In this document: in pieces, positions 1 through 45,190 of the stretch
How the letters are laid out: every line of letters starts with the position of its first letter
Numbering within the stretch: the first letter of the stretch is position 1
From: Deltaproteobacteria bacterium
GTDB lineage: Bacteria; Myxococcota_A; Polyangia; HGW-17
Direction: 5' to 3'
DNA length: 64,000 nt
Assembly (NCBI GenBank): GCA_027858615.1
Contig: JAQICJ010000286.1
Coordinates: forward strand, 1,926-65,925
The notes under the pieces: generated by a model
What the model saw: only the letters and a program-made list of their open reading frames with translations
Database searches by the model: none
Told to the model about the DNA's origin: nothing
Program-made: the position numbers and the translations under genes

Positions 1-2379
1 ACCTGTCTTTACAGCGTTGAAATTGGAGCTGGGCGTAAAAGAAAATCTTTCCGTGAATGTAAATTGGCTCTGTCCAAACTTTATTCAAGTGAAAATGAAA
101 ATGGACAAATAAATCCTGTGGGTATTCTCTCTCTAGTAGCAGAAGGGGATCCAGCCAGACATCCCCTTGCTTATCAAGGCAAAGAAAAACGAAAAGTTGT
201 AGACAAATGGTATGTATATAAAGATGGGGACAATTATGTTCAATATGGTAAAGACAAAAACCAGTCCTCCAACCGTTCCAAAAGTCAAAAACTGTGCCTG
301 GAAAATTTCAAAAAATACAGAAATAGTGAATATTTCAAATTTGTTACCTATCGCCGTTACAAATATCTGAGAAAAATACAGGGTTCAGATAAAATTGGAT
401 CCTTTGCTGACCATCTCGAAAAAGCCAAGATCGAACATAAGAAAAGAGTTGGTAATTACGGAGACGGTGCCTGCAAGATCTTTGTACTCAATGAAAAGGG
501 CGGCTGGGACAAACAAGACTCGGCTGTTGTTGAAAGAACAGCTCTTGAAGCTTTGCGCGGAATGGGAGCTGGAGATGATATAAAAAGAATCTTCCTCGAA
601 AATTACAGTTCTTATGCCATGGAAGCCTATTGGGATTTCACAGCCGAACAGTCCTGGGAAGCAGCCAAAGTAAGCTGTGAAAAAGAAGGCATGATGAGGA
701 TGTACATCAAAAAATTCTGTGTTCCTAAATATAACGATAAAATTGATGGTATCAAATCCCAGTGGAACAAACTCAAAGATTACAACTGGTTAGTGGATGC
801 TTCCAAAGAAGCTATGTACGGTTCCGGTTGGTACACAACTTCCACAAATGATGATTTAAGCAGAAGAATCAGAGACGAACTGGAAAAAAGACTTAAATGG
901 CTGCACGATCCAAGATCAACTGTTTTTGCCGCCAAATCTCTGGCCATGGTTCCTTACAAGAAAGATAGCTTTAAAAATATTCTCGATGTAGTTGTCGATC
1001 TGGAACATGATCCCGAAAACAAAGACGAAAAGGCTGTGTCTTTGGAACCTTGGCACATTGCAACCGAACTGCTCTGGGAACAATACCGACAACAAACTAT
1101 TCAAAATCTGCAAAAGGGTAATTTCGAAAAGAGATGTGCCACTTTAGGTGGAGAATTAAAAGACAAATGTCAGAAGAAATTTGGCAAAGCCTTCCAGAAA
1201 GTAATGGAAGTTTTCCAGATGTGGAGTTTCAACAGAGACAGATGGTTGCGTTCAAGATACATGTGGCTATTACCACTGCAGGATTATTTCGGTTATTGGC
1301 CCATTGATCCAAAAACAAAAAAACCTGTTCAGATGGATGCCAAAACACTTTATAAAGAATATGTAAAGTGGACCAAAAAATGTGAAGAAAAACGAAAAGC
1401 TTTCAGTAAAACCACTGAAGCTAAAAAGAAACCTAAAAATGAACCCATCTGTGATGGTTATGATAAATCTAAAGATTGGGGTTGGAACATCAAGGCTTCT
1501 CAAGCAGCCAAGGGTATGAGCAAAGCCGGTATTTCAGCCAAAGAGGCAGAAAAACGACTTGTTCTCACTGGTTACGAAAGAGTTAGACTTGATATTCTCA
1601 AGTCAGCCTTTGATTATGCTTCTATTGAAGATTTCAAAACTCTCATGAGCATAAAACCAGAGCATATCATGATCGATCCAGGTCTCCATCCTCTAGACAA
1701 GGTTGATCGTGACAAATTGTCCGAAGCAGCAAAAGTTGATTACGAACTCATGGTGCAAAGGCCATGGGACAAAAAAATGGAAAAATATAGACAAATAGTT
1801 GCCAAAAAAGTTATCAAGTCAGAATTGGATAAATTGCTTGAACCAATCCATGACTTGAAATCTTTTTCCAAAGCTTATCTTGGCAGTGAAGCTCCCATTA
1901 ACAATATTTCAGCTCTGAGAACCATTATTCAGACCGTATCAATTCAAAAGCCATGTCCCGAAAAGGATAAAGATGGTAAAGTTCCCTCTTGTGCAGTTTT
2001 TGAAGATAAATACAACGAAAAAACTGAAGAATGGACGCAAATCCGCAAACCTTCAAGACAGACAATTGTTACTCCCTGGAGAGCCCGTCACAAGGCACTT
2101 ATGTTGATTAATGCCTGGGATAAAAACATCAACGAAGGTGACCGTAAAAATCTCGTTCAGACTTTGGCCACAACCTACGAAAAATCCGAAGTTCCTGTAA
2201 GAGAAGCAATTTTGCTGGTTCTCGACCGCTGGAGTAACTCCTCAGATTATAAAGACGTAGCTGAACCAATTAAAAAAGTTGTTAAATTTGAAACTGATAA
2301 CCATCGTAGAGGTGGTTATTTCTGGATGAATCAAAGAGCTCTCTCCTTCCTCGGAAGACTCAAAGGTAAACAAAAATAA
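1..2379 (+). CDS. large lysine-rich hypothetical protein, 5'-partial (reading frame open to window start; track start at 64 is only the first TTG)
   Basis: Frame 1 has no stop from nt 1 to 2379. No recognisable motif was found by eye. Composition is K/E/D-rich. Confidence 0.55.
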   Translation, partial: TCLYSVEIGAGRKRKSFRECKLALSKLYSSENENGQINPVGILSLVAEGDPARHPLAYQGKEKRKVVDKWYVYKDGDNYVQYGKDKNQSSNRSKSQKLCLENFKKYRNSEYFKFVTYRRYKYLRKIQGSDKIGSFADHLEKAKIEHKKRVGNYGDGACKIFVLNEKGGWDKQDSAVVERTALEALRGMGAGDDIKRIFLENYSSYAMEAYWDFTAEQSWEAAKVSCEKEGMMRMYIKKFCVPKYNDKIDGIKSQWNKLKDYNWLVDASKEAMYGSGWYTTSTNDDLSRRIRDELEKRLKWLHDPRSTVFAAKSLAMVPYKKDSFKNILDVVVDLEHDPENKDEKAVSLEPWHIATELLWEQYRQQTIQNLQKGNFEKRCATLGGELKDKCQKKFGKAFQKVMEVFQMWSFNRDRWLRSRYMWLLPLQDYFGYWPIDPKTKKPVQMDAKTLYKEYVKWTKKCEEKRKAFSKTTEAKKKPKNEPICDGYDKSKDWGWNIKASQAAKGMSKAGISAKEAEKRLVLTGYERVRLDILKSAFDYASIEDFKTLMSIKPEHIMIDPGLHPLDKVDRDKLSEAAKVDYELMVQRPWDKKMEKYRQIVAKKVIKSELDKLLEPIHDLKSFSKAYLGSEAPINNISALRTIIQTVSIQKPCPEKDKDGKVPSCAVFEDKYNEKTEEWTQIRKPSRQTIVTPWRARHKALMLINAWDKNINEGDRKNLVQTLATTYEKSEVPVREAILLVLDRWSNSSDYKDVAEPIKKVVKFETDNHRRGGYFWMNQRALSFLGRLKGKQK

Positions 2380-2613: not shown

Positions 2614-4536
2614 ATGATCAAGTTCCAAATAATCGAGGGCGAACAAAGTGGTGAATGTTTTGAGAGCGATGAAGCTGTATTTACTATAGGTAGAATTGAC
2701 AATAATGATTTTTCATTAAGTGATTATCACATCAGTAGTGAACATGCTCAGGTATTTTGGGAAGACAATCAATACATCTTTAAAGATTTGAGATCCACAA
2801 ACGGTTCGGTGATAAAAAGGGGAGAGGATCTGTTTACTGTGAATGGAGCCCATCATTGGGAACTACCTTTGCAGCAAGGAGACAGACTGCTGTTGGGAGC
2901 ACCTCATTCTCCAGTAATTATAGAATGCAAAAAAGTTGCCAGCCCTTCTTTTGTTGATGAATCCGATAAAAAAACAAAAGTGGTTCTGGCACGAGATAAA
3001 AGCCAATTGGAGACCTTCCAGGAAAAAGCACTGGATGACCATAATCTTGCTAGAATCATGTACAGAATGGTACAGACAATTGGTAAAAGTGGACTCAGGT
3101 TGTCAGATGTTCTGGACAATGTTGCCAAAGCTGTTTTTGAATTGATCAAATTATCTACCAATGTTTCCATTTATTTAAAAAACAGATCAAATCGATTCAA
3201 ATTAAAATATTCCTGTTCCAGGCAGGGCAAAGAACAGTCCAATGGGTCAAGATCTGTTATCAGACTTGTATTAAAGCGTAAACAAGCCGTTGTTGTAGCT
3301 GATGCTCCAGAAGTTCTTTCCGATTCAGAATCAATTCTGGCGGCTGATATCAAGTCGGTTATCGCTGTTCCTTTCTGGCACAAAGGAAAAATCAGCGGGA
3401 TTTTGCAATGTGATAACCGGGGTAGTAATGGAATTTTTTCCGAAAAAGAGCTGGAGTATCTTACTCTGCTCAGTTATCAGGCGAATCTTGCAATTCAAAA
3501 TGCCCGTTATTTTGGACAGTTGGAACAAAAAGAAAAACAAGTAGAATCAGAGAATTACTACCTCAAAAAAAACCGGAATATTTTCACTTTCAACGATATC
3601 ATCGGTGAATCAGATGAAATGCATAAAATATTCGAACAATTGAAGAAAGTTCTGGACACCAGAGTTTCCATCCACATCTGGGGAGAAACAGGGACCGGAA
3701 AAGAATTGATTGCCTCTTCCATTCATTATCAGAGCAAGAGAAAAGACAAAATGTTCGTAGCTCAGAATTGTGCTGCTTTACCGGAAAATTTGCTGGAAAG
3801 CGAATTATTTGGTCATGAAAAAGGCTCTTTTACCGGAGCTGACCGTAAAAAGAAGGGATTGTTCGAAATTTCAGATGGAGGAACCCTGTTCCTTGATGAA
3901 ATAGCTGATATGTCACCCTCATTACAGGTTAAGCTTTTGAGAGTGCTTCAGGAGGGTGAAATAAGACCTGTTGGTTCCACTCAAGTAAAATATGTTGATG
4001 TTCGTATTATTTCAGCTACCCATAAAAATCTGGAAAAAGAAGTGGAAAATAATAATTTTAGAGAAGATCTTTTTTACAGGCTTCATGTTTTCCCCATTAA
4101 ATTACCGCCTTTAAGAGACAGGCAGGGAGATATAGAAATTCTGACCCGGCATTTTCTGGAAAAATTCAATCGAGAATTGAAAAAAGATGTTTCCATCTCA
4201 AAATGTGCTCTGGAAGAAATGAAGGGTTATAAATGGAAAGGAAATATCCGAGAGTTGGAAAATGAAGTCCAGCGTCTGGTTATATTGGCTGATTCCGAAG
4301 ATACTATCAAAACTGATAATCTCAGAGCTCATCAACGCAAGCAGACTTCGGTAATGGGTCGGAAGATGTATGATAAATCAAAAACCCTCAAGGAGTTGGT
4401 TGGGGAAGTTGAAAAAATAATTATCAGGCAAGCCATCAAAGACTCTGGTGGTAATAAAACAAACGCCGCCAAAAATCTGGGAATTACCAGAGAAGGATTA
4501 TACAAGAAGATCTCACGCTTCAACATGGAGTTATAG
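2614..4536 (+). CDS. sigma-54-dependent transcriptional activator with N-terminal FHA domain, central GAF-like domain, AAA+ sigma54-interaction domain and C-terminal Fis-type HTH
   Basis: FHA-like N-terminus (FTIGR..NDFSLSDYHISSEHAQVF...STNGS). Walker A GETGTGKE, ESELFGHEKGSFTGA (GAFTGA-type) motif, and C-terminal NAAKNLGITREGLYKKI helix-turn-helix. Confidence 0.85.
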   Translation: MIKFQIIEGEQSGECFESDEAVFTIGRIDNNDFSLSDYHISSEHAQVFWEDNQYIFKDLRSTNGSVIKRGEDLFTVNGAHHWELPLQQGDRLLLGAPHSPVIIECKKVASPSFVDESDKKTKVVLARDKSQLETFQEKALDDHNLARIMYRMVQTIGKSGLRLSDVLDNVAKAVFELIKLSTNVSIYLKNRSNRFKLKYSCSRQGKEQSNGSRSVIRLVLKRKQAVVVADAPEVLSDSESILAADIKSVIAVPFWHKGKISGILQCDNRGSNGIFSEKELEYLTLLSYQANLAIQNARYFGQLEQKEKQVESENYYLKKNRNIFTFNDIIGESDEMHKIFEQLKKVLDTRVSIHIWGETGTGKELIASSIHYQSKRKDKMFVAQNCAALPENLLESELFGHEKGSFTGADRKKKGLFEISDGGTLFLDEIADMSPSLQVKLLRVLQEGEIRPVGSTQVKYVDVRIISATHKNLEKEVENNNFREDLFYRLHVFPIKLPPLRDRQGDIEILTRHFLEKFNRELKKDVSISKCALEEMKGYKWKGNIRELENEVQRLVILADSEDTIKTDNLRAHQRKQTSVMGRKMYDKSKTLKELVGEVEKIIIRQAIKDSGGNKTNAAKNLGITREGLYKKISRFNMEL

Positions 4537-5553
4537 ATTTTTGAAAATTCCTGGGATTTTTGTCTGACAGAAGTTGCATCTGCCCTGATCGTCAATATTC
4601 AATTCGGGAACTGCATAACCGTTACGTTCAATTATAGTTTTATGACAGGAGGGACAAAGAGTGTTTTCGCTGTTTTCAAGCTTGATATTACCCGTATAGA
4701 CAAAGTTAAGACCTTGTTCTCTGGCAATATTGACTGCTTCAATCATTTTTTCAACAGGAGTGGCAGGGCGATGATATTTGTAAACAGGAAAATATCTGCT
4801 GAAATGGATGGGAATATTGGGAGAGAGAGAAGCAACAAAGGAACTAAGATCTTTTAATTGGGCAGAGTCATCGTTGATACCGGGAACAATGAGAGTGGTA
4901 ATTTCGACCCAGACTCCGTTATTATGCAGAAGCTCAATGGTTCTGGCTGCATGTTTATAACTCAAGCCGGTGTATTTAGAGGTTAATTTGCTGTCAAAAC
5001 CTTTGAGATCGATATTGGCTGCATCGAGAAAAGGAATAAGTTCCTGCAGTGGTTCAGGGTTGATAGCACCATTGCTCACCCAGATGTTCATTATCTCGTT
5101 TTTTTTGGCTAATTTTGCAATCGCAAGGCTATACTCGTAAAAAACAGTGGGTTCGGTATAGGTGGCTGCAATCATTGGCAGGGAGTTTTTACGAGCTTTT
5201 GCGACTATTGCAGCAGGTTCCGCGCTGGCACCCGGAAGAGGTCTGATTGAATGCTGTCGGGGCCATTGAGCGATATCTGAATTTTGACACCAGTGGCAGC
5301 TAAGATTGCAGCCGCTGGTGGCAAAAGAAAGAATGCTCTGTCCGGGCAGGACGTGGTAAAGGGGCTTTTTTTCTATGGGATCAGAGCCCATAGAAAGGAG
5401 GCGACCCCATGTTTGGGTGTATAATTTGCCCATAATGTTTTTGCGTACTTTGCACAGACCGTATTCATCTGGTTTGATAATACAATTGAAGGGACAAAGT
5501 TCGCATTTTACTATGTTTTTATTGAGTTCAGAAAAGTATTTTGCCAGTTTCAT
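4531..5553 (-). CDS. radical SAM enzyme, AmmeMemoRadiSam-system type (PflA-like activase superfamily), paralog 1
   Basis: N-terminal Cys cluster CELCPFNC...GLC, then DPIEKKPLYHVLPGQS and GCNLSCHWCQN (CxxxCxxC) radical SAM motif. The start overlaps the plsB stop by 26 nt. Confidence 0.75.
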   Translation of the reverse strand: MKLAKYFSELNKNIVKCELCPFNCIIKPDEYGLCKVRKNIMGKLYTQTWGRLLSMGSDPIEKKPLYHVLPGQSILSFATSGCNLSCHWCQNSDIAQWPRQHSIRPLPGASAEPAAIVAKARKNSLPMIAATYTEPTVFYEYSLAIAKLAKKNEIMNIWVSNGAINPEPLQELIPFLDAANIDLKGFDSKLTSKYTGLSYKHAARTIELLHNNGVWVEITTLIVPGINDDSAQLKDLSSFVASLSPNIPIHFSRYFPVYKYHRPATPVEKMIEAVNIAREQGLNFVYTGNIKLENSENTLCPSCHKTIIERNGYAVPELNIDDQGRCNFCQTKIPGIFKNL

Positions 5554-8047
5554 TTTTTTTGATCATTTTATGTTGTAGATGGTAGTTATGGAGAAATTTC
5601 TCCCTGTTCCTGATAAAATCATCAATTTCATCAGCAAAATTGAGGGTAGTTATTTTTTTAGCGGAAGATATTTTCAATAAATCGTTGTCGATCATGAGAT
5701 TAATGGTTTCGATAAAAATGGATTTATTAAAGGATTCAAAGCGGAAATGACGATTTTCAAGGATGTTGAAAGCATTTTTCTGGATGGCTTTAACCAGTTC
5801 CTTTTTTGCTGCTTCCTTGTTTTTATTGAAATACTTTCTGAGACAGAAAGCAGTAAGCAGTTGTCCTTCCAGAAATTCCAGGATCAAACTGGAAAGATTA
5901 GCCAACTCAAACTTGGAAAATTGGGTAAGAAAATTAAATTCTTCTGGAAAAGATGCATAATCTCCATCTGTCAGATAAGGAAATTCTCTTCTCAAGCATG
6001 TGCGCAGTAATTGATAATCGCTTTCCAGATTTTCATTTTCTGCGATAATTGCTGCTGCAGCTATTGCAGGTTTGATAACTGTTTGCAAAAAACCGTTCTT
6101 GTAATATGAAAGTTTAACCCTTTTATCTGACTCAACCTGGATTCTGTCTCCATCTTTTTTGATGATATTATTGAAACCCTTGAGGGAACGTCTGAATCTG
6201 CGCAGAAGTTGATTTTGATTTTTGATGGTTTTAGCCAAAATCAGGTTTCTGGCGGCAGCAATTTTATGAAAAGATTGGTAAATGGAAAAAATATCATAGG
6301 AATTGAAGGTATTTGAACTGGAAGACAAAAGAGCTGCACCGGTAAGCATACTGCTGGTGATGGTGGTATTTTGCACAATATTATGAGTAATTTTCAAAGA
6401 GAGTTGATGGATTTTTTCTTTGAATTCAGAGGAAGCTGGATCTATATTGCCGAGATAGTTTTTCATATCAAAGGGCTGTGCTACCCTGATGTGAACTCTG
6501 CCGTATCTGTTTAACAAAACACTGGCTGATTTCAATACCTGAAAAAAATCTTCACTCTTTTTTTCCTTGCCAAAATTTTCAATTTGATAACTGTCTTCTT
6601 CAATTACTTTTTCATAGCCTATGGTGATGGGAACAATCTGGGGAGAAGGCAGAGGCCTTTGCAGTAAAAGTTTGCCAATCATAGACAGAAGTCCGAATTT
6701 GGGATAAACAGCTTTTCCGGTTCTGGATCTGGTTCCTTCAATGAAAAATTCAATATTGACTCCCAATTTTAACAACTCGGTTATGTATTCAAGCAGAACT
6801 TGTTTGTAAAGTTTTTTGCCTTTGAAGGAACGTCTGATGAAAAAAGCTCCTCCCATCCTGAAGATTGCGCCCATAGGGAAGAAGGAAAGATTCTGTCCCG
6901 CAGCTATGTGGGGAATGGGCAGATGGTATTTATCCATCAACCAGGAAATCAACAGATAATCCACATGACTGCGGTGGCAGGGAATAAGAATAAGGGGACC
7001 TCTGGTGGAATATTCCCGCATTTTTTCAAAACCTTTATCATCAAGTTCAAAACCTTTGAAAATACGGTGCCAGATAAACGTAAGGGCGTATTTGTAAAAA
7101 GCCAGAGTAGTTTTGGTGGGAGCAGCCGGGATTTCACGGATGGCACTTTGTATCTCTTTGAGAGCTTTTTCGGGATCTGTACCTTCGTCAATGGTTTGGA
7201 AATATAATTTGGTTATATTTTCATTTTTATTGAGATTATGCTGAATTTTGCCTAGAGAAGGCAATTTGGGACCCAGGGTCAATTTCCATTCTTTTTCGAT
7301 AGCCTCAACCAGAAGATCGTAGAGATGATCAGCTTTGTCAGCAAAATTTTGATTGGTGTTTCCCAAAATGAAACTGCTGATATTTAAAGGAGGGGCAATT
7401 CTGATCATGGGTTGGAAAAGGGAAGAAAAAACCTGCAAGACTCCTCTGATATTTGTAGGTTTTTCCTGCTGACCAATATATTTATCCACGAATTCTTTGA
7501 AAGCATTGCTGTTTCGGGTTCCACTACGATCCCACACCGGAATGACCGGCAGGGCGACGATTTCTTTTTGTGGGGCATTTTTGTTGAGGCTGGAGATAAG
7601 GTTGAGTAAAACTTCATCTCCAGTTTTTTTCTGTTCGGGTTCAAAGATGTTTTTAATGGTGTAAAGACTTATCAGCGCAGGTTTTCCAGCAAGCAGATCA
7701 TCGCTGATCAATTTTAATTGATGTTCCTTATCGAATTTAAAAAGATGCTTGCCCAGGAACGCCCCCATTTTTTTTAAAGGATTAAGAAAGAACGGGTTTT
7801 CCGGGAAAATATGATCAGGCAGTGGTAGTTTTTCGTTCACCAGGATCTGTCTGAAAAGAGAATAATCCACCAGATTTTTAGTTCCAAAAACATAAAGAAC
7901 AGTGAAATTATCATTAATTTCTTTGAGTTTTTTAAGATCTTTATCTTTAAGATCAACTCGTTCATAGAGGGGAGAAAGAATAGTTTTTTGAATTTCTCTA
8001 TTGCTTTTTGCAAAATTTTTTAAAAATGAATTTAGTAATTTTTCCAT
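5528..8047 (-). CDS. plsB: glycerol-3-phosphate acyltransferase PlsB
   Basis: About 840 aa with the HxxxxD acyltransferase block CHRSHVDYLLISW, GGAFFIRRSFKG and FIEGTRSRTGK, as in E. coli PlsB. Confidence 0.85.
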   Translation of the reverse strand: MEKLLNSFLKNFAKSNREIQKTILSPLYERVDLKDKDLKKLKEINDNFTVLYVFGTKNLVDYSLFRQILVNEKLPLPDHIFPENPFFLNPLKKMGAFLGKHLFKFDKEHQLKLISDDLLAGKPALISLYTIKNIFEPEQKKTGDEVLLNLISSLNKNAPQKEIVALPVIPVWDRSGTRNSNAFKEFVDKYIGQQEKPTNIRGVLQVFSSLFQPMIRIAPPLNISSFILGNTNQNFADKADHLYDLLVEAIEKEWKLTLGPKLPSLGKIQHNLNKNENITKLYFQTIDEGTDPEKALKEIQSAIREIPAAPTKTTLAFYKYALTFIWHRIFKGFELDDKGFEKMREYSTRGPLILIPCHRSHVDYLLISWLMDKYHLPIPHIAAGQNLSFFPMGAIFRMGGAFFIRRSFKGKKLYKQVLLEYITELLKLGVNIEFFIEGTRSRTGKAVYPKFGLLSMIGKLLLQRPLPSPQIVPITIGYEKVIEEDSYQIENFGKEKKSEDFFQVLKSASVLLNRYGRVHIRVAQPFDMKNYLGNIDPASSEFKEKIHQLSLKITHNIVQNTTITSSMLTGAALLSSSSNTFNSYDIFSIYQSFHKIAAARNLILAKTIKNQNQLLRRFRRSLKGFNNIIKKDGDRIQVESDKRVKLSYYKNGFLQTVIKPAIAAAAIIAENENLESDYQLLRTCLRREFPYLTDGDYASFPEEFNFLTQFSKFELANLSSLILEFLEGQLLTAFCLRKYFNKNKEAAKKELVKAIQKNAFNILENRHFRFESFNKSIFIETINLMIDNDLLKISSAKKITTLNFADEIDDFIRNREKFLHNYHLQHKMIKKNETGKILF

Positions 8048-8291: not shown

Positions 8292-10400
8292 TTAAACAGC
8301 TCTGGTGATTTCGTCTTCACTTGCATCGAAAGCTTGTTTGCGGGAAAGTCGGATTCGACCTCTTTTGTCAATATCTACTACTTTAATGATGACTCGATCA
8401 TTGATATTGACAACATCGGTGATGTTGTCGATGTGACGGTCTTCAATTTCGCTGATATGAATAAGTCCGTCGGTGTTGGGAAGGAATTGGACAATAGCAC
8501 CAAAATTTTCGAGAATCTTTTTGACATAGCCTTCGTAATATTTGTCAATTTCAGGTTCCATGACAATGTTTTTAATCATTTGTCTGGCTCTGAGAGCTCC
8601 TTCATTGGTATCGGCAGCAATCAAAACTTTGCCGGAATCTTCAATATCAATTTTTGCTCCGGTTTCTTCCTGAATTCCTTTGATTGTTTTTCCTCCGGCT
8701 CCAATGATGGCACCGATTTTACTGGGCTTGATTGTGATTGATTTAACACTGGGAGCATGATCGGGAAGTTCTTCCCTGGGCTCTTCAATAGTTTCTTTCA
8801 TGATACCAAGAATGTGAAGACGACCTTCTCGAGCCTGATACAGAGCTTTTTTCATGGTTTCCTGATCGAGTCCTTCAATTTTGATATCCATCTGGATGGC
8901 TGTGATACCTTCTTCGGTTCCTGCTACTTTGAAGTCCATATCACCCATATGGTCTTCATCACCGAGAATGTCAGAAAGAATAGCCACATTGTCATCTTCT
9001 TTAATGAGTCCCATGGCGATTCCGGCTACTGGAGCCTTTGTGGGAACACCGCAGGCCATCAGGGAGAGAGAAGCTCCGCAGATAGTTGCCATGGAAGAAG
9101 AACCGTTGGATTCGGTTATTTCGGAAACTACTCTGATAACTGAGGGGAAATCATCTTCGGAAGGAAGTATTTTGCCTACTGCTCTATGAGCCAAGTGGCC
9201 GTGTCCAATTTCACGGCGAGATGGTCCTCGCAGAAATTTTGCTTCTCCAACTGAATAGGGTGGAAAATCATAATGAAGCATGAATTTGCGAAATTCTTCC
9301 CCGGTGATCAGATCCAGTTTTTGATTGTCCATACCGAAACCAAGGGTTGTAGTGACTATAGCCTGGGTTTCACCTCTGGTGAAAAGAGCACTTCCATGGG
9401 CTCTGGGAAGGATATCAATTTCGCAGGTGATGGGACGTATTTCATCACGTTCACGATTGTCAATGCGGTGATTGTCGTTGAGAATCCAGTTGCGAACGAT
9501 TTGGGATTTCAATTCTCCCATTGCTTCCATGACTTCGTTTTTACGTTCTTCGTAATCGGGACCGAGGTTTTCCATTGCCAGATCTTTTACTCGATCTATA
9601 GCTGCATAACGTTCAAGTTTGTCGGAAATATTGAGAGCGGCTTCAAGGGGTTCTCTGACAGCTTCAGATACCAGTTTAGCCAGCTCTTCATCTTTTTCTA
9701 CAACTGGAGCAGGGCGTTTTTTCTTACCTACGGTGTCAGCCAGTTTTTTTTGCATTTCCAAAATAGGTTGGACTTTCTGGAAACCGAAATCAAGAGCATC
9801 AAGCAGGATGTCTTCATCAAGGTTGTCAAGTTCGCCTTCAACCATAACGATGGCATTGTCTGAAGCTACAATATTGAGATCTAGATCAGATTCTTCGAGT
9901 TCCTGGAGGGTTGGGAATTGAATGAATTCGCCGTCAATGCGGGCAATCTGAATACCTGCTATTGGTCCGTTCCAGGGAATATCGCTGATGCAAAGTGCAA
10001 CGCTGGCTCCAATTTGTGCCAGAGGAGGTGTGGGATTGGTTTTGTCGTGGGAAAGCACTGTTGTGATAACCTGGGTGTTAAAACTCCAGCCTTCAGGGAA
10101 AAGGGGTCTTATAGGTCGATCAATCAAACGGGAAGCAAGGATTTCTTTTTCTCCAAGTCTTCCTTCGCGGCGAAAAAAGTTGCCGGGAATTTTGCCCGCT
10201 GCGTAATCTTTTTCTACATAATCCACAGTTAAAGGAAGGAAAGTTGCATTTTCCTTGGGTTTTTTTGAGGCCACAACTGTGCATAGAAGCAAAGAATCGC
10301 CGTATTTAATGGTAACAGAACCGTCAGCCTGTTTGGCAATTTTTCCAGTTTCGATAGTTAATTTTTTGTCGTTGATAATTATTGATTCTTTAATGTGCAT
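8292..10400 (-). CDS. pnp: polynucleotide phosphorylase/polyadenylase
   Basis: Two RNase PH-like domains with KH and S1 C-terminal domains. The 702 aa length and N-terminus are typical for PNPase. Confidence 0.95.
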   Translation of the reverse strand: MHIKESIIINDKKLTIETGKIAKQADGSVTIKYGDSLLLCTVVASKKPKENATFLPLTVDYVEKDYAAGKIPGNFFRREGRLGEKEILASRLIDRPIRPLFPEGWSFNTQVITTVLSHDKTNPTPPLAQIGASVALCISDIPWNGPIAGIQIARIDGEFIQFPTLQELEESDLDLNIVASDNAIVMVEGELDNLDEDILLDALDFGFQKVQPILEMQKKLADTVGKKKRPAPVVEKDEELAKLVSEAVREPLEAALNISDKLERYAAIDRVKDLAMENLGPDYEERKNEVMEAMGELKSQIVRNWILNDNHRIDNRERDEIRPITCEIDILPRAHGSALFTRGETQAIVTTTLGFGMDNQKLDLITGEEFRKFMLHYDFPPYSVGEAKFLRGPSRREIGHGHLAHRAVGKILPSEDDFPSVIRVVSEITESNGSSSMATICGASLSLMACGVPTKAPVAGIAMGLIKEDDNVAILSDILGDEDHMGDMDFKVAGTEEGITAIQMDIKIEGLDQETMKKALYQAREGRLHILGIMKETIEEPREELPDHAPSVKSITIKPSKIGAIIGAGGKTIKGIQEETGAKIDIEDSGKVLIAADTNEGALRARQMIKNIVMEPEIDKYYEGYVKKILENFGAIVQFLPNTDGLIHISEIEDRHIDNITDVVNINDRVIIKVVDIDKRGRIRLSRKQAFDASEDEITRAV

Positions 10401-30086: not shown

Positions 30087-30335
30087 AGGATAGCAAGTTA
30101 CAAGTGTATGTAATGATTGTGTAATGATTGTTGTAAAACCAATGGTGACTTTTTGTGGACAGGCGGGCAATAACTGTCTCTTTTTGTGTACAGGGGTTGC
30201 GTCATTGGGTTTGACACCAGATTTAACAATATTAAATATGTAGATAAAACATGTAGTTAAAGTGTTTTTAAATTAAGTTTTCGAGGTGGGCACAGATATT
30301 GCTTTTAACGCAGTGTGTCATCAAAGGAGACTGCA

Positions 30336-31274
30336 ATGAAATACTTTATATTTGTAAACATCAAATCAGTACTATTAATTGTTCTTTTTTTCGGTGGATT
30401 GATTTCAGGTTGTGATCAAAATATTTCTGAAAACAATTTTCCCGAGGATTCCCTGCGCTTGCTCTATCAAACAAAAGTTCCCGCAGGTTATGAAAATCTT
30501 ACCATTATAAATGCTGGTTCTAATTCCGGAAGAGTTTATCTGGAAACCGGAAACAATAAAATTTCAGTAATAGAAAAAAATGGGGATTACCAGATTATGG
30601 ATCCAGATTGTAAACTGGTAAGAATCAATCAACAACTTGCTCTTTGTGAAAGTGGTATTCTCTCTCTTGATAGTTATGATTTTAAAAGCTTCCCGAGAGA
30701 TATGGAAAAGTTTAACTTTACCAACGGAGCCATCGGACCAATGGGTAGATTGGTTTATCTTTATGATAAAACAGGAAAATTAAGTTTGACAGATTCCGGT
30801 TGGACCCATGAAGCCAGTGACGACAGCAATCTATTGCTTTGGAAAAAAGGGCGTGAAACCCTGGAAATTATAGCGGGTCATGGCAAGATTCATCTTGGAA
30901 CTGTGAAATTGGCAGGAAAATTGATCGATCTTGAAATCTCAGGGGAAAATATCTTTGTTCTTTATTTGTCAGAAGAAAGAGAAACCTGGGGAATAGAAAC
31001 AATCTCAATAGATAATTACAAAAGATCGGGTGATTTGATTGAGGAAAAAATTACCGCAGGAGTAGCTCCGGTAGATTTTGCTGTTTCCCCCCAACAAAAA
31101 TCAATGGTTATCTTTACTCGAGACAACACAGTTTATTATCTGGATTTGATTACCATTGAATATGAAAAAATAACTCTGCCTTGGCAGGTTGACTATGTCA
31201 TCAATCTCCAAAATAAATTTTTTGCCTGGTCCAGTCAGAACTACGAACTCCACAAGTTGACTAATTGTAACTGA
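30336..31274 (+). CDS. hypothetical lipoprotein
   Basis: GGAG RBS 7 nt upstream of the ATG at 30336. Signal peptide plus lipobox LISGC. No recognisable domain. Confidence 0.5.
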   Translation: MKYFIFVNIKSVLLIVLFFGGLISGCDQNISENNFPEDSLRLLYQTKVPAGYENLTIINAGSNSGRVYLETGNNKISVIEKNGDYQIMDPDCKLVRINQQLALCESGILSLDSYDFKSFPRDMEKFNFTNGAIGPMGRLVYLYDKTGKLSLTDSGWTHEASDDSNLLLWKKGRETLEIIAGHGKIHLGTVKLAGKLIDLEISGENIFVLYLSEERETWGIETISIDNYKRSGDLIEEKITAGVAPVDFAVSPQQKSMVIFTRDNTVYYLDLITIEYEKITLPWQVDYVINLQNKFFAWSSQNYELHKLTNCN

Positions 31275-42802: not shown

Positions 42803-43591
42803 ATGAAAACCAAATTACTTTCTATTCTCGCAATTTCAATATTTTTTGTTTTTGCTGGCTGCGATGACGATGAAGACAGCAACAACACCAACAACGTCAA
42901 TAATACCAACAACGTCAATAACACCAATAATGTCAATTGTGGCAATGATATAGTTGAAACCGATGAAGTATGTGACGGCACTGCTCTTGACGGTGAAGAT
43001 TGCACAACAATCGGCGATTATACCGGTGGTGAGCTTAATTGTGCAGCCGATTGCCTTTCCTTTGACGAATCAGCCTGTACTGCCAACACCAATAATGTTA
43101 ATTGTGGCAATGGTATAGTTGAAAGCGGTGAAGTATGTGACGGCACTGCTCTTGACGGTGAAGATTGCACAACAGTCGGCGATTATATCGGTGGCGAGCT
43201 TGACTGTGCAGACGATTGCCTTTCTTTTGACGAAGCAGCTTGTACTGCTGATGCTACTCCGACTCCCGACGGATTTGTCGGATCAAGTTGTACCGATGTG
43301 GCTGATTGTACAGAAGTTGCAGATGCTACAGGTCTTACTGCTGAATGTGTTGAACAATTATCCATGATCACTTTGCCGGACGGTTATTGCTCTTCAACAT
43401 GTGATGTAGCTGCCGATCCCGATCCATGCGGTGATGCTGGTGGTGAATGCGTAGATATCATGGGTATGTTCATCTATTGTTTGCAGCCATGTGTTGAGGG
43501 AAATGGCGAATGTCGTACAGGTTATCAGTGCGCTGCTTTATCCGAAGAAGCTGGTGCTCCCACCTATTGTCTCCCTCCCTTAGGTGTGTAA
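42803..43591 (+). CDS. secreted cysteine-rich repeat lipoprotein (Myxococcus-type CGNG..E.CDG Cys-rich repeats)
   Basis: Lipobox FAGC, NTNNVN x3 low-complexity spacer, two near-identical repeats CGNGIVE.GEVCDGTALDGEDCTT.GDY.GGEL.CA.DCLSFDE..C, and a Cys-rich C-terminus. Locally more G+C-rich than its neighbours. Confidence 0.7.
   Translation: MKTKLLSILAISIFFVFAGCDDDEDSNNTNNVNNTNNVNNTNNVNCGNDIVETDEVCDGTALDGEDCTTIGDYTGGELNCAADCLSFDESACTANTNNVNCGNGIVESGEVCDGTALDGEDCTTVGDYIGGELDCADDCLSFDEAACTADATPTPDGFVGSSCTDVADCTEVADATGLTAECVEQLSMITLPDGYCSSTCDVAADPDPCGDAGGECVDIMGMFIYCLQPCVEGNGECRTGYQCAALSEEAGAPTYCLPPLGV
42935..43250 (+). repeat. two tandem direct repeats of about 165 bp (over 90% identical) inside the Cys-rich lipoprotein gene, preceded by three copies of an 18-bp unit (42893-42946)
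   Basis: Direct sequence comparison of 42935-43099 with 43100-43250. Confidence 0.85.
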
Positions 43592-43735: not shown

Positions 43736-44743
43736 TCAACTTCCGTCTGTTTCAGCCCAGATTCCGGGAATTTTGTGGTTGCAACCCGGGCATCTGCCTT
43801 TGGCAATCCGGTTGCTTTGTACCTTGTAGCCGTATCTTTCAATCAATATAGTTTGACATTGGGGACAGATGGTATTTTGATAACCTTGTCCCCGCAAATT
43901 TCCCAAATATACAAATTGAATCCCGTTGGATTTAGCGATGGTTCGGGCTTTAAGCAGAGTAGACACCGGAGTGGCGGGTAGATTGCGCAATTTATGGTGG
44001 GGAAAAAATCGGGATATATGCAAAGGTACTTCGGGACCTAATTCTTTGGTTATCCAACGGGTAAGCTGGTTAATTTTCTCTTCGCTGTCATTTTTACCGG
44101 GAATTATCAGAAAGGTGAGTTCGAGCCAAATACCCCTTTGTTTAAAAAGTTTTGCGGTTTCCAAAACCGGTTTTAACGTAGCCGAACAGATGTCCCGGTA
44201 GAATTTATCGCTGAAAGCTTTTAGATCAAGGTTGACAGCATCTATTGAAGGAATCGCTTTGAGCAGGGGCTGGCGATTGATGTAACCTGCTGTAATCCAG
44301 TAGTTCAACAGTCCGCGGCTTTTGGCCTTTTGGCCGATATCAAGGGCGTATTCGTAAAAAACCACGGGATCGGTATAGGTGAGAGCGATTCCCTGGCAGG
44401 ATTTTTTGAGAGCGGTGGTAACAACTTTCTCAGGGGAGATTTTATAAGCTTTTCTTTGCAGGGGAGAAACCTGGGAAAGACCGGCATTTTGGCAGTTGAG
44501 ACAATGAAGGTTGCAGCCGGTGGTGGCAATGGAGAAAGCTTTGGAGCCGGGCAGGACATGAAAAAGAGGCTTTTTTTCCACGGGATCGATGTGAACAGCG
44601 GCGGGTCGGCCATAGGTGAGAGCCAGCAATTTGCCGTTGTGGTTGTAACGGATACGGCAATCACCGGTTTCTCCCGGGGAAATTTTGCATAATTTGGGAC
44701 AAAGGTTGCAGGTAAGTTGTTTATTCATTGACATTTTTTTCAT
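43736..44743 (-). CDS. radical SAM enzyme, AmmeMemoRadiSam-system type, paralog 2 (ORF open to 44773; start probably one of the Met at 44743/44734/44728)
   Basis: CNLCPKLC...GDC N-terminal cluster, DPVEKKPLFHVLPGSK, GCNLHCLNCQN. It aligns along its length with paralog 1. Confidence 0.75.
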   Translation of the reverse strand: MKKMSMNKQLTCNLCPKLCKISPGETGDCRIRYNHNGKLLALTYGRPAAVHIDPVEKKPLFHVLPGSKAFSIATTGCNLHCLNCQNAGLSQVSPLQRKAYKISPEKVVTTALKKSCQGIALTYTDPVVFYEYALDIGQKAKSRGLLNYWITAGYINRQPLLKAIPSIDAVNLDLKAFSDKFYRDICSATLKPVLETAKLFKQRGIWLELTFLIIPGKNDSEEKINQLTRWITKELGPEVPLHISRFFPHHKLRNLPATPVSTLLKARTIAKSNGIQFVYLGNLRGQGYQNTICPQCQTILIERYGYKVQSNRIAKGRCPGCNHKIPGIWAETDGS

Positions 44744-44840
44744 AAAAAAGAGCTTCGTGTCCTGAAAGAACACCGCTTTTGACTGCTTTAATCAATTTGT
44801 TATCCTGTTTGGGGGTATTTTTATCGGTTGCTTTATTCAT
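44721..44840 (-). CDS. small ORF (about 39 aa, MNKATDKNTPKQDNKLIKAVKSGVLSGHEALFYEKNVNE) overlapping the rSAM start; possible coupled small protein. A longer 109-aa frame with a hydrophobic helix extends to 45050
   Basis: Its reading frame ends with TAA 8 nt inside the rSAM ATG region (ATGAATAA overlap). No homology recognised. Confidence 0.25.
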   Translation of the reverse strand: MNKATDKNTPKQDNKLIKAVKSGVLSGHEALFYEKNVNE

Positions 44841-45190
44841 GTTTGCTTTAACAGACCCGGTGCCATTGCGAGAAAAGATAGTCAGATTGGAATAATTGCA
44901 AAAAATGAGAATGAGATAGAGAACAACAAAAACCACCGAGATGCCAATTTGAAATTTATGCAAAGAAAAGGATTTTTGTGAATACATGCCAAAAATATAG
45001 CAAAAAAAAAAACAATTGAAAGTTCTTTGCTTTTTAGTTGTACTAATCAACTAATGTGAAAAAATTAGCAAAAAACTTTGCAAGTTTTGGTTCAGCTTGT
45101 TTTAGATCAATATTTATGGCAAGTTCAAGAATATTAGTTTGAAAGAGAACCAACTGCCAAAAATTAATCGAGTACAAGGAGAAAATAATC

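What the first reader, a model, noticed from the sequence alone, without database searches (positions are those of the whole stretch)
4531..5553. AmmeMemoRadiSam-type radical SAM enzyme translationally coupled to plsB, with no AMMECR1/MEMO1 partners
The rSAM (CxLCPxxC N-terminal cluster plus GCNLSCHWCQN) normally occurs in a three-gene cassette with AMMECR1- and MEMO1-like genes. Here its ATG lies 26 nt inside the 3' end of plsB on the same strand, and it converges on an FHA-sigma54 regulator. A second paralog sits 38 kb away (see next finding). Coupling a PflA-like activase-family rSAM to the membrane glycerol-3-phosphate acyltransferase is unusual. It may indicate a lipid- or membrane-protein-directed modification.
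Basis: partly seen in the sequence, partly recalled or inferred. Interest (0 to 1): 0.55.

Follow-up and report, generated by a model that had tools for sequence, protein, structure and literature searches.

The report
Radical SAM gene fused to plsB operon
This is an intact but ordinary member of a widespread radical-SAM enzyme family of unknown function; it sits in a gene block (pnp-plsB-rSAM) conserved across an uncultured Myxococcota-like clade, which is a modest lead to the family's function, not proof of a lipid role.

Summary
ORF 4531-5553 (minus strand, 340 aa) scores 326 bits on TIGR04337 (cutoff 220). It has every family-invariant cysteine and a confident PflA-like model. Its ATG lies 26 nt inside the PlsB-like gene. 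Its 3' end overlaps a convergent FHA-GAF-sigma54 regulator by 6 nt. A 42%-identical paralog lies 38 kb away.

The claim that absent AMMECR1/Memo neighbours are abnormal is overstated. Of 80 family loci from other genomes, only 14 had either gene within 10 kb. Whether the genome encodes them elsewhere cannot be tested from one metagenomic contig.

The new result is that plsB-rSAM linkage is conserved. Three deep lineages keep pnp-plsB-rSAM with -26 to +50 nt spacing, although PlsB identity between them is only 32-39%, GC ranges from 38% to 67%, and one lineage has different flanks. None of the 80 background loci has it.

The evidence is ambiguous:
- pnp is equally tightly linked.
- A fourth lineage keeps pnp-plsB without the rSAM.
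- Two sequences sharing the clade's motif signature sit in other contexts.
- Monophyly of the linked rSAMs is unresolved.

A lipid or membrane role is my leading guess (about 0.35). An RNA-modification role with partners encoded elsewhere is nearly as likely.

The parts
4531..5553 (-). rSAM-1: 340-aa AmmeMemoRadiSam-family (TIGR04337) radical SAM enzyme, the target of the finding
   Evidence: TIGR04337 at 326 bits against cutoff 220. PF04055. AlphaFold model pLDDT 94.9, pTM 0.93. Best solved-structure match is PflA 3C8F, target-normalised TM 0.79.
5287..5310 (-). CX3CX2C radical SAM cluster motif (C82, C86, C89) within GCNLSCHWCQN. W88 is one half of the clade signature.
   Evidence: Read from the sequence. 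C82, C86 and C89 are invariant in 47 family members. W at this position combined with A130 is found in all plsB-linked copies.
5452..5505 (-). N-terminal four-cysteine motif C17, C20, C24, C34 (probable auxiliary metal or cluster site)
   Evidence: Invariant across the 47-sequence family alignment. The metal-binding role is an inference.
4567..4656 (-). C-terminal CxxC...CxxC (C300, C303, C326, C329), a zinc-ribbon-like module absent from PflA
   Evidence: C300, C326 and C329 are invariant and C303 is present in at least 90% of the family alignment. The model shows beta strands at 306-318. The PflA alignment covers about 257 columns of the 340-residue model.
5528..5553 (-). 26-nt overlap between the end of the PlsB-like ORF and the rSAM start, with no Shine-Dalgarno sequence (A-rich leader)
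   Evidence: The identical overlap occurs in the 88% ortholog (L002/L003). Spacing in the other lineages is -8, +3, +10, +12, +13 and +50 nt.
5528..8047 (-). PlsB-type glycerol-3-phosphate acyltransferase homolog (839 aa), the upstream operon partner
   Evidence: PF01553 + PF19277. PlsB equivalog models score 338 bits, below the 610 cutoff. The HRSHVDY (HX4D) motif is present in the translation.
8292..10400 (-). Polynucleotide phosphorylase (pnp), the third member of the conserved pnp-plsB-rSAM block
   Evidence: ORF. Pfam domains are listed for the same gene in L001. pnp directly precedes plsB in all related loci, with a 4-nt overlap in L005, L007, L009 and L011.
2614..4536 (+). Convergent FHA-GAF-sigma54 enhancer-binding protein whose 3' end overlaps the rSAM by 6 nt. 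This is context only, not part of the conserved core.
   Evidence: The arrangement is conserved in lineage A (L002/L003) and lineage B (L006), but not in lineage C.
43736..44773 (-). rSAM-2: the second TIGR04337 paralog (345 aa as the longest ORF; the true start is probably an internal ATG)
   Evidence: 371 bits. 42% identical to rSAM-1. Belongs to a separate clade with 99% NJ bootstrap support. Relatives start 3-8 aa before the CxLCP motif.

Best explanation
Shown:
- rSAM-1 is an intact AmmeMemoRadiSam-family (TIGR04337) radical SAM enzyme with a PflA-like core, an N-terminal four-cysteine module and a C-terminal four-cysteine module.
- It is one of two paralogs in this genome.
- It is the last gene of a pnp-plsB-rSAM block retained in three deeply diverged lineages of an uncultured Myxococcota-labelled clade.
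- In this genome its start codon lies inside the end of plsB and has no ribosome-binding site of its own.

Inferred:
- It is co-transcribed with plsB, and its translation depends on ribosomes finishing plsB, which ties its expression to that of the acyltransferase.
- Chemically, the CX3CX2C [4Fe-4S] cluster cleaves SAM reductively to a 5'-deoxyadenosyl radical, which abstracts a hydrogen atom from a substrate.

My commitment, with low confidence: this paralog acts at the membrane on a lipid-type substrate made by or downstream of the PlsB-type acyltransferase. I favour that over action on PlsB itself or on a glycyl-radical enzyme. AMMECR1 and Memo partners, if they exist, are encoded elsewhere.
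For: - Family and integrity.
- Conserved linkage: the same block occurs in L002/L003, L005, L006, L007, L009/L010, L011 and L096.
- Depth of divergence: these fall into three lineages whose PlsBs are only 32-39% identical to each other. GC ranges from 38% to 67%.
- Flanks: in lineage C the flanking genes differ on both sides.
- Spacing: plsB stop to rSAM start is always -26 to +50 nt.
- Specificity: 0 of 80 background family loci carry a PlsB-like or PNPase gene.
- Signature: all linked rSAMs share CxWCQN + ATYTEP. This pair is absent from 78 background rSAMs and from the other top-120 homologs, except P0006 and P0028.
- Other envelope or lipid contexts for the signature: L109 lies next to a convergent PlsC-type PF01553 acyltransferase, a HAD hydrolase and an EEP phosphatase. 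P0006 and P0028 follow two OMP beta-barrel-like genes.
- Membrane-anchored fusions exist in the family: DsbD_2-FMN_bind-Fer4_5-rSAM.
- No SD sequence precedes the rSAM ATG, whereas eno, glnA, purA, rny and rpsO in the window have AGGAG-type sites.
Against: - pnp is linked to plsB at least as tightly (4-nt overlaps) with no known functional relation. Conserved adjacency in this clade therefore does not prove shared function.
- A fourth lineage (L004) keeps rbfA-truB-rpsO-pnp-plsB but has no rSAM downstream.
- My prediction that signature-bearing P0006 and P0028 would be plsB-linked failed.
- NJ bootstrap gives only 21% support for monophyly of signature-bearing rSAMs. The window's copy does not group with the other linked ones.
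- No residue distinguishes rSAM-linked PlsBs from the unlinked one.
- Lineages A and B share extended synteny on both sides, so only lineage C gives independent evidence.
- The only published functional prediction I could read for the system is RNA base modification (PMC2034487).
- There is no expression or biochemical data.
Confidence: 0.35

Rival explanations
1. Split canonical system, with adjacency as a synteny relic. rSAM-1 does whatever the AmmeMemoRadiSam system does, for example the RNA base modification predicted by Balaji and Aravind. AMMECR1 and Memo are encoded elsewhere in the genome. The gene merely sits at the tail of the rbfA-truB-rpsO-pnp RNA-metabolism supraoperon, into which plsB is also embedded.
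For: - The block contains pnp. In lineages A, B and L004 it continues upstream into DUF503-rbfA-DHH-truB-rpsO.
- In 66 of 80 background loci the rSAM is not next to its partners, so split systems are the norm.
- RNA-related neighbours recur in the background: RtcB in 6 loci, an RsmE-type methyltransferase in 4, a MiaB-like enzyme in 5.
- PMC2034487 predicts RNA base modification for the AMMECR1 + rSAM + dioxygenase trio.
- Triple fusions of rSAM, Memo and AMMECR1 show that the three proteins work together in at least some organisms.
Against: - In lineage C the upstream RNA genes are replaced by EamA/PALP or prfB/FtsX, yet plsB-rSAM stays adjacent.
- The rSAM is always next to plsB, never next to pnp.
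- Other signature-bearing copies lie in envelope or lipid contexts, not RNA contexts.
- The genome has a second, more canonical paralog (371 bits against 326) that could serve the canonical system.
Confidence: 0.3
2. PlsB itself, or another membrane protein, is the substrate. On this view the PflA-like enzyme installs a radical or a post-translational modification on the acyltransferase it is co-translated with.
For: - The fold is closest to PflA, a protein-directed activase.
- Tight translational coupling favours 1:1 co-production.
Against: - No clade-specific Gly or Cys, or any other residue, is invariant in rSAM-linked PlsBs yet different in the unlinked L004 PlsB. L004 shares almost all clade-specific residues.
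- GRE-activase HMMs score far below their cutoffs.
- No glycyl-radical domain was found in any Pfam-scanned ORF of the window.
Confidence: 0.05
3. It is a bona fide glycyl-radical-enzyme activase (PflA, NrdG or YjjW type) that the TIGR04337 model has captured wrongly.
For: Weak partial hits to activase models (47-61 bits). PflA is the best structural match.
Against: - TIGR04337 matches end to end at 326 bits, above its cutoff, while every activase model is 70-190 bits or more below its own cutoff.
- The extra N- and C-terminal cysteine modules are family-invariant and absent from PflA.
- No GRE gene is nearby.
Confidence: 0.03

Closest known systems
AmmeMemoRadiSam system radical SAM enzyme (NCBIfam TIGR04337)
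   Same: - Full-length HMM match above the curated cutoff.
- All family-invariant residues are present, including 11 cysteines.
- Length and domain layout match the family.
- NCBI already gives this name to the 88% ortholog P0001.
   Different: - It carries the CxWCQN + ATYTEP signature.
- It scores lower than its in-genome paralog (326 against 371 bits).
- It lies in a lineage-conserved pnp-plsB-rSAM block seen in 0 of 80 other family loci.
- No AMMECR1 or Memo occurs within 64 kb, though that is also true within 10 kb for about 80% of family loci sampled.
Pyruvate formate-lyase activating enzyme PflA (PDB 3C8F/3CB8) and other glycyl-radical activases
   Same: Partial TIM-barrel radical SAM core. 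Foldseek E 1e-14, target-normalised TM 0.79, rmsd 3.0 A. CX3CX2C near the N-terminus of the core.
   Different: - 18-19% identity.
- About 60 extra N-terminal residues with four Cys, and about 40 extra C-terminal residues with four Cys.
- Activase HMMs score below their cutoffs.
- No glycyl-radical enzyme gene is nearby.
Triple-fusion and membrane-anchored forms of the same family (rSAM-Memo-AMMECR1; DsbD_2-FMN_bind-Fer4_5-rSAM; rSAM-diflavin reductase)
   Same: The rSAM module is homologous, scoring 300-400 bits to a profile built from rSAM-1, P0001, P0006 and P0028.
   Different: Those proteins carry their partners or electron donors in cis. rSAM-1 is a stand-alone 340-aa protein whose only fixed neighbour is a lipid acyltransferase gene.
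Lipid-modifying radical SAM enzymes such as archaeal tetraether synthase Tes and GDGT-modifying enzymes (titles seen: PMC8941075, PMC11214058)
   Same: Only the concept: a radical SAM enzyme acting on membrane lipid chains. This is the kind of chemistry the lipid hypothesis would require.
   Different: No sequence relationship was tested or is claimed. Those enzymes are not PflA-like TIGR04337 members (my own knowledge, not tested here).
E. coli-type PlsB (TIGR03703 / NF003441), for the neighbouring gene
   Same: PF01553 acyltransferase + PF19277 GPAT_C domains, an HX4D motif, a length of about 830 aa, and a faint PlsB_N domain.
   Different: Scores 326-339 bits against equivalog cutoffs of 610-618. 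It belongs to a small divergent clade whose members are 34-43% identical to it. Everything else is at most 36% identical (at most 34% over half or more of the query) and scores less than half the bits.

Membership tests
AmmeMemoRadiSam rSAM (TIGR04337) | Full-length HMM score above the curated cutoff | tested here: met
   326 bits against 220. Residues 4-339 align to profile positions 1-335 of 349.
AmmeMemoRadiSam rSAM (TIGR04337) | Radical SAM CX3CX2C motif plus the family-invariant N-terminal (C17, C20, C24, C34) and C-terminal (C300, C303, C326, C329) cysteines | tested here: met
   All are present in the translation. They are invariant or at least 90% conserved in a 47-member alignment.
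AmmeMemoRadiSam rSAM (TIGR04337) | PflA-like radical SAM fold | tested here: met
   pLDDT 94.9. Top PDB hits are PflA 3C8F, 3CB8 and 8FO0.
AmmeMemoRadiSam system (three components) | AMMECR1-family (PF01871) and Memo-family (PF01875) genes in the same genome | not testable with these tools
   Only 64 kb of a metagenomic genome is available, and there are none in it. The MAG assemblies named could not be searched as whole genomes.
AmmeMemoRadiSam system (three components) | Partners adjacent or fused to the rSAM | tested here: not met
   None in the window or in any related locus L001-L015, L096, L116. This feature is met in only 14 of 80 background loci, so it does not define membership.
Glycyl-radical enzyme activases (PflA TIGR02493, PFLE_PFLC TIGR02494, NrdG TIGR02495, YjjW TIGR04041) | HMM score above the curated cutoff | tested here: not met
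   47.1 against 231.75; 50.1 against 174.35; 45.4 against 131.15; 60.6 against 250.2.
Glycyl-radical enzyme activases | A cognate glycyl-radical enzyme gene nearby | tested here: not met
   No PFL-like or Gly_radical domain in any Pfam-scanned ORF of the window.
PlsB glycerol-3-phosphate 1-O-acyltransferase (neighbouring gene) | Equivalog HMM cutoff; acyltransferase HX4D motif and GPAT_C domain | tested here: inconclusive
   The equivalog cutoffs are not reached (338.6 against 610; 325.5 against 618.5). PF01553 (80 bits) and PF19277 (117 bits) are above their cutoffs, and HRSHVD is present.

The most novel reading that the evidence does not exclude
The CxWCQN/ATYTEP-type paralog has separated from AMMECR1 and Memo and become a dedicated lipid-modifying radical enzyme that works with a divergent PlsB-type acyltransferase. 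For example, it could introduce a C-H functionalisation, cross-link or ether-type change on glycerolipid chains in uncultured Myxococcota-like bacteria that are presumably anaerobic. If so, this would be the first substrate class assigned to any member of the AmmeMemoRadiSam family, and a clue to the unresolved function of AMMECR1 and MEMO1.
Probability: 0.15. Interest if true: 0.7.

Novelty: new member of a known kind. Interest (0 to 1): 0.33.

Why it matters
AMMECR1, Memo and their radical SAM partner form one of the most widely conserved enzyme trios without a known reaction, and two of the three have human homologs linked to disease. Any reproducible genomic association is therefore a usable lead.

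Here a family member is tied, across three deep lineages, to a PlsB-type acyltransferase gene. That gives a concrete and inexpensive experiment: co-express plsB with and without the rSAM, then compare lipids and RNA nucleosides.

On present evidence, however, this is a lineage-restricted operon arrangement of an already annotated family member. It is not a new system.

Tried and rejected
1. I predicted that the two other top homologs carrying the CxWCQN + ATYTEP signature (P0006, P0028) would be plsB-linked. This was wrong. They follow two OMP beta-barrel-like genes.
2. I tested whether the 274-284 aa and 206 aa genes upstream of those rSAMs were cryptic Memo and AMMECR1. They are not.
3. NJ trees with bootstrap, meant to show monophyly of the plsB-linked rSAMs, were unresolved. 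Support was 21% for all W+A copies, and the window's copy was placed elsewhere. A GC range of 38-67% among the linked lineages (31-67% over all loci compared) probably distorts the distances.
4. ATYTEP alone is not a valid clade marker. Sixteen of the 19 rSAMs recovered from the 20 metagenome loci carrying it lack the W.
5. I searched for PlsB residues specific to rSAM-linked copies, such as a target Gly or Cys. There are none.
6. Sigma-70 promoter, terminator and sigma-54 promoter scans around the operon found nothing above shuffled expectation.
I used those loci as a background sample instead.
8. Literature: no functional study of the system was found. Burroughs et al. 2019 (PMC6664185) is not held. 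From memory, its abstract links Memo contexts to nucleotide-base and aliphatic isoprenoid modification, but I could not verify this.
9. One paper search was wasted because 'memo' matched 'memory'.
Full report
**1. What is in the sequence**

The minus-strand ORF 4531..5553 encodes 340 aa. It starts at the first ATG after an in-frame TGA. It matches NCBIfam TIGR04337 (AmmeMemoRadiSam system radical SAM enzyme) end to end at 326 bits, above the curated cutoff of 220. Every glycyl-radical activase model scores 45-61 bits against cutoffs of 131-250. Pfam finds PF04055.

In a 47-member family alignment the invariant or near-invariant cysteines are C17, C20, C24, C34, C82, C86, C89, C300, C303, C326 and C329. 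rSAM-1 has all of them.

An AlphaFold model is confident (pLDDT 94.9, pTM 0.93). Its closest solved structure is PflA (3C8F, Foldseek E 1e-14, target-normalised TM 0.79, 19% identity). The first roughly 60 and last roughly 40 residues have no counterpart in PflA. By sequence, PflA is the only PDB relative, at E about 1e-4.

The gene is therefore real, intact and correctly assigned. NCBI already names its 88% ortholog this way.

**2. Neighbours in the window**

- Upstream on the same strand is an 839-aa PlsB-type acyltransferase (5528..8047). It has PF01553 + PF19277 and an HRSHVDY motif. It scores 338 bits against a PlsB equivalog cutoff of 610, so it is a divergent PlsB-type enzyme.
- Its stop codon (5530-5528) lies 26 nt downstream of the rSAM ATG.
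- The leader before that ATG is A-rich with no Shine-Dalgarno sequence. Highly expressed genes in the window do have AGGAG-type sites. This fits translational coupling but does not prove it.
- pnp (8292..10400), rpsO, truB, a DHH phosphoesterase, rbfA and DUF503 continue upstream on the same strand.
- An FHA-GAF-sigma54 activator (2614..4536, +) converges on the rSAM and overlaps it by 6 nt.
- A second TIGR04337 gene lies at 43736..44773 (-). It scores 371 bits and is 42% identical.
- No AMMECR1 or Memo gene is detectable anywhere in the 64 kb.
- The window is ordinary chromosomal sequence from a metagenome-assembled organism that NCBI labels Deltaproteobacteria or Myxococcota.

**3. Is the lack of partners unusual?**

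No. A genome-collection scan returned 80 family loci from other species. I built Memo and AMMECR1 HMMs from the Memo-AMMECR1 fusion proteins found beside some of them; Pfam confirmed the identity of one representative.

Only 14 of the 80 loci have either gene within 10 kb. Among the 39 loci with at least 5 kb on both sides, 8 do. A lone rSAM gene is the common state in this sample.

Fusion proteins combining rSAM, Memo and AMMECR1 do exist, so the three do work together in some organisms. Whether this genome encodes the partners elsewhere cannot be tested with one contig.

**4. Is the plsB linkage more than a local accident?**

Yes, it is conserved. The PlsB-type protein has a 100% copy and an 88% ortholog. 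Next comes a small clade at 34-43% identity. Everything else is at most 36% identical (at most 34% over half or more of the query) and scores less than half the bits. Contexts retrieved for that clade were:

| Locus | Context |
|---|---|
| L002/L003 (88% orthologs) | Identical arrangement, including the 26-nt overlap |
| L006 | rbfA-DHH-truB-rpsO-pnp-plsB-rSAM, then the convergent sigma54 regulator |
| L005, L007, L009/L010, L011 | pnp-plsB-rSAM with unrelated genes on both sides |
| L096 (from a motif scan of metagenomes) | pnp-plsB-rSAM |

PlsB pairwise identities group these into three deep lineages:
- A: the window and L002.
- B: L006.
- C: L005, L007, L009, L011 and L096, which are 61-85% identical among themselves.

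Between lineages PlsB identity is 32-39%. PNPase identity is about 60%. GC ranges from 38% to 67%. The distance from the plsB stop to the rSAM start is -26, -26, -8, +3, +10, +12, +13 and +50 nt. None of the 80 background loci has a PlsB-like or PNPase gene in its flanks.

**5. Limits of that signal**

- pnp and plsB are themselves tightly joined, by 4-nt overlaps in lineage C. No functional relation between them is known. Conserved adjacency in this clade is thus demonstrably not always functional.
- A fourth deep lineage (L004) keeps rbfA...pnp-plsB, but a small ORF and recA follow instead of the rSAM.
- Lineages A and B share synteny over at least 11 genes. Only lineage C is strong independent evidence.
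- All linked rSAMs share a signature: W in CxWCQN together with A in ATYTEP. It is absent from 78 background rSAMs and from all other top-120 homologs, except P0006 and P0028. I predicted those two would be plsB-linked, and they are not. They follow two OMP beta-barrel-like genes.
- Another signature-bearing copy (L109) lies after a HAD hydrolase and an EEP phosphatase. It faces a PlsC-type PF01553 acyltransferase and an M48 protease. This is suggestive of a lipid or envelope theme, but it is a single case.
- NJ bootstrap supports lineage C (100%) and the rSAM-2-type clade (99%). Support for monophyly of all signature-bearing copies is only 21%.
- Signature-bearing copies are divergent family members, scoring 232-326 bits on TIGR04337.
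- No residue separates rSAM-linked PlsBs from the unlinked one.

**6. Two paralogs**

rSAM-2 belongs to a well-supported clade of shorter proteins (323-333 aa). Members from many phyla are 50-60% identical to it.

Its 60% ortholog P0242 comes from the same two MAGs (GCA_018821745.1, GCA_018819465.1) that carry the signature-bearing P0028. The two-paralog state is therefore older than the window's genus. No Memo or AMMECR1 lies next to rSAM-2 or next to P0242.

**7. How it most likely works**

Shown:
- An intact radical SAM enzyme of the TIGR04337 family.
- A conserved operon position after plsB.
- A start codon embedded in plsB.

Inferred from the established chemistry of the superfamily: the CX3CX2C [4Fe-4S] cluster cleaves SAM reductively to a 5'-deoxyadenosyl radical, which abstracts a hydrogen atom from the substrate. 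The two extra four-cysteine modules probably bind additional metal centres.

The substrate is unknown for the whole family. I found no functional study. The one prediction I could read proposes an RNA base modification by AMMECR1 + rSAM + dioxygenase (PMC2034487).

My ranking:
- A lipid or membrane-directed role co-expressed with the PlsB-type enzyme, about 0.35.
- A canonical system function, possibly on RNA, with partners elsewhere and adjacency as a synteny relic, about 0.30.
- PlsB itself as the substrate, about 0.05.
- A mis-assigned glycyl-radical activase, about 0.03.
- The remainder is unassigned.

**8. Comparison with what is known, and verdict**

Every testable membership criterion for TIGR04337 is met. 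The system-level criterion, partners in the same genome, is not testable here. The gene is a new member of a known but uncharacterised family.

What is new is the lineage-conserved pnp-plsB-rSAM arrangement and the associated sequence signature. I did not find either described, but my literature access was limited.

Interest is modest. The result is a testable lead for a long-standing orphan enzyme system. The association is restricted to one uncultured clade, it is ambiguous between lipid and RNA readings, and one of my own predictions derived from it failed.

Noticed in passing
window 44721-45050 (-) and 43736-44773 (-); L116 8889-9179 and 9176-10153; L117 1448-1738: Relatives of the paralog rSAM-2 start only 3-8 aa before the CxLCP motif. 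They lack the N-terminal 'KEAxFYEKL'-type segment that other family members carry in frame. In the window, a 109-aa upstream ORF with a hydrophobic segment ends ...GHEALFYEKNVNE* in another frame and overlaps the rSAM-2 5' end by 53 nt. In two MAGs of another lineage, a 96-aa upstream ORF ends ...DHEALFYRRIQ...* and overlaps the rSAM start by 4 nt. This could be a split gene, a frameshift (programmed or an assembly error) or coincidence. The GTG start at 44773 is probably too far upstream.
   Followed up: partly
window 64-2379 (+); L001 13175-16492; L002 13177-16395; L006 11370-14445: A large lysine-rich protein with no Pfam or NCBIfam hit. It is 771 aa as the listed ORF in the window and 1072-1121 aa in relatives. 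It is conserved next to the FHA-GAF-sigma54 regulator in lineages A and B.
   Followed up: no
L005, L007, L009, L011: pnp 3887-6004 / plsB 6001-...: In lineage C, pnp and the PlsB-type gene overlap by 4 nt (ATGA-type junction). This is a tight coupling of an RNA-degradation gene to a lipid-synthesis gene with no obvious functional rationale. In the window the same pair is separated by 244 nt.
   Followed up: partly
P0366, P0374, P0378, P0441, P0005, P0017 (family members elsewhere): The family includes fusions of the rSAM to a membrane redox module (DsbD_2 + FMN_bind + Fer4_5, NosR/Rnf-like) and to a flavodoxin-FAD-NAD diflavin reductase. These look like built-in electron donors, some of them membrane-anchored. 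There are also rSAM-Memo-AMMECR1 triple fusions in several domain orders.
   Followed up: partly
L109 373-4470: A signature-bearing rSAM sits in a different putative operon: a HAD hydrolase (386 aa), an EEP-family phosphatase or nuclease (370 aa) and the rSAM, joined by 4-nt overlaps. It converges on a 212-aa PlsC-type acyltransferase and an M48 (CAAX-protease-like) peptidase.
   Followed up: partly
window 42803-43591 (+): A 262-aa secreted-looking protein has an internal tandem duplication of a Cys- and Asp-rich unit (NNVNCGNxIVExxEVCDGTALDGEDCTTxGDYxGGELxCAxDCLSFDExACTA). It has no family hit at the thresholds used. It lies convergent to rSAM-2.
   Followed up: no
window 30288-30303 (+): GGGCACAGATATTGCT is a one-mismatch match to the sigma-54 promoter consensus. 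It ends 12 nt before the start of ORF 30315-31274, which has no Pfam hit. The window encodes two sigma-54 activators. The overall number of such matches in the window is not above chance.
   Followed up: no
background loci L016-L095: Recurrent neighbours of family rSAMs other than Memo and AMMECR1 are a UbiE/type-11 SAM methyltransferase (9 loci, median 169 nt away), RtcB RNA ligase (6), DsbD_2 membrane protein (5), a MiaB-like rSAM (5) and an RsmE-type RNA methyltransferase (4).
   Followed up: partly
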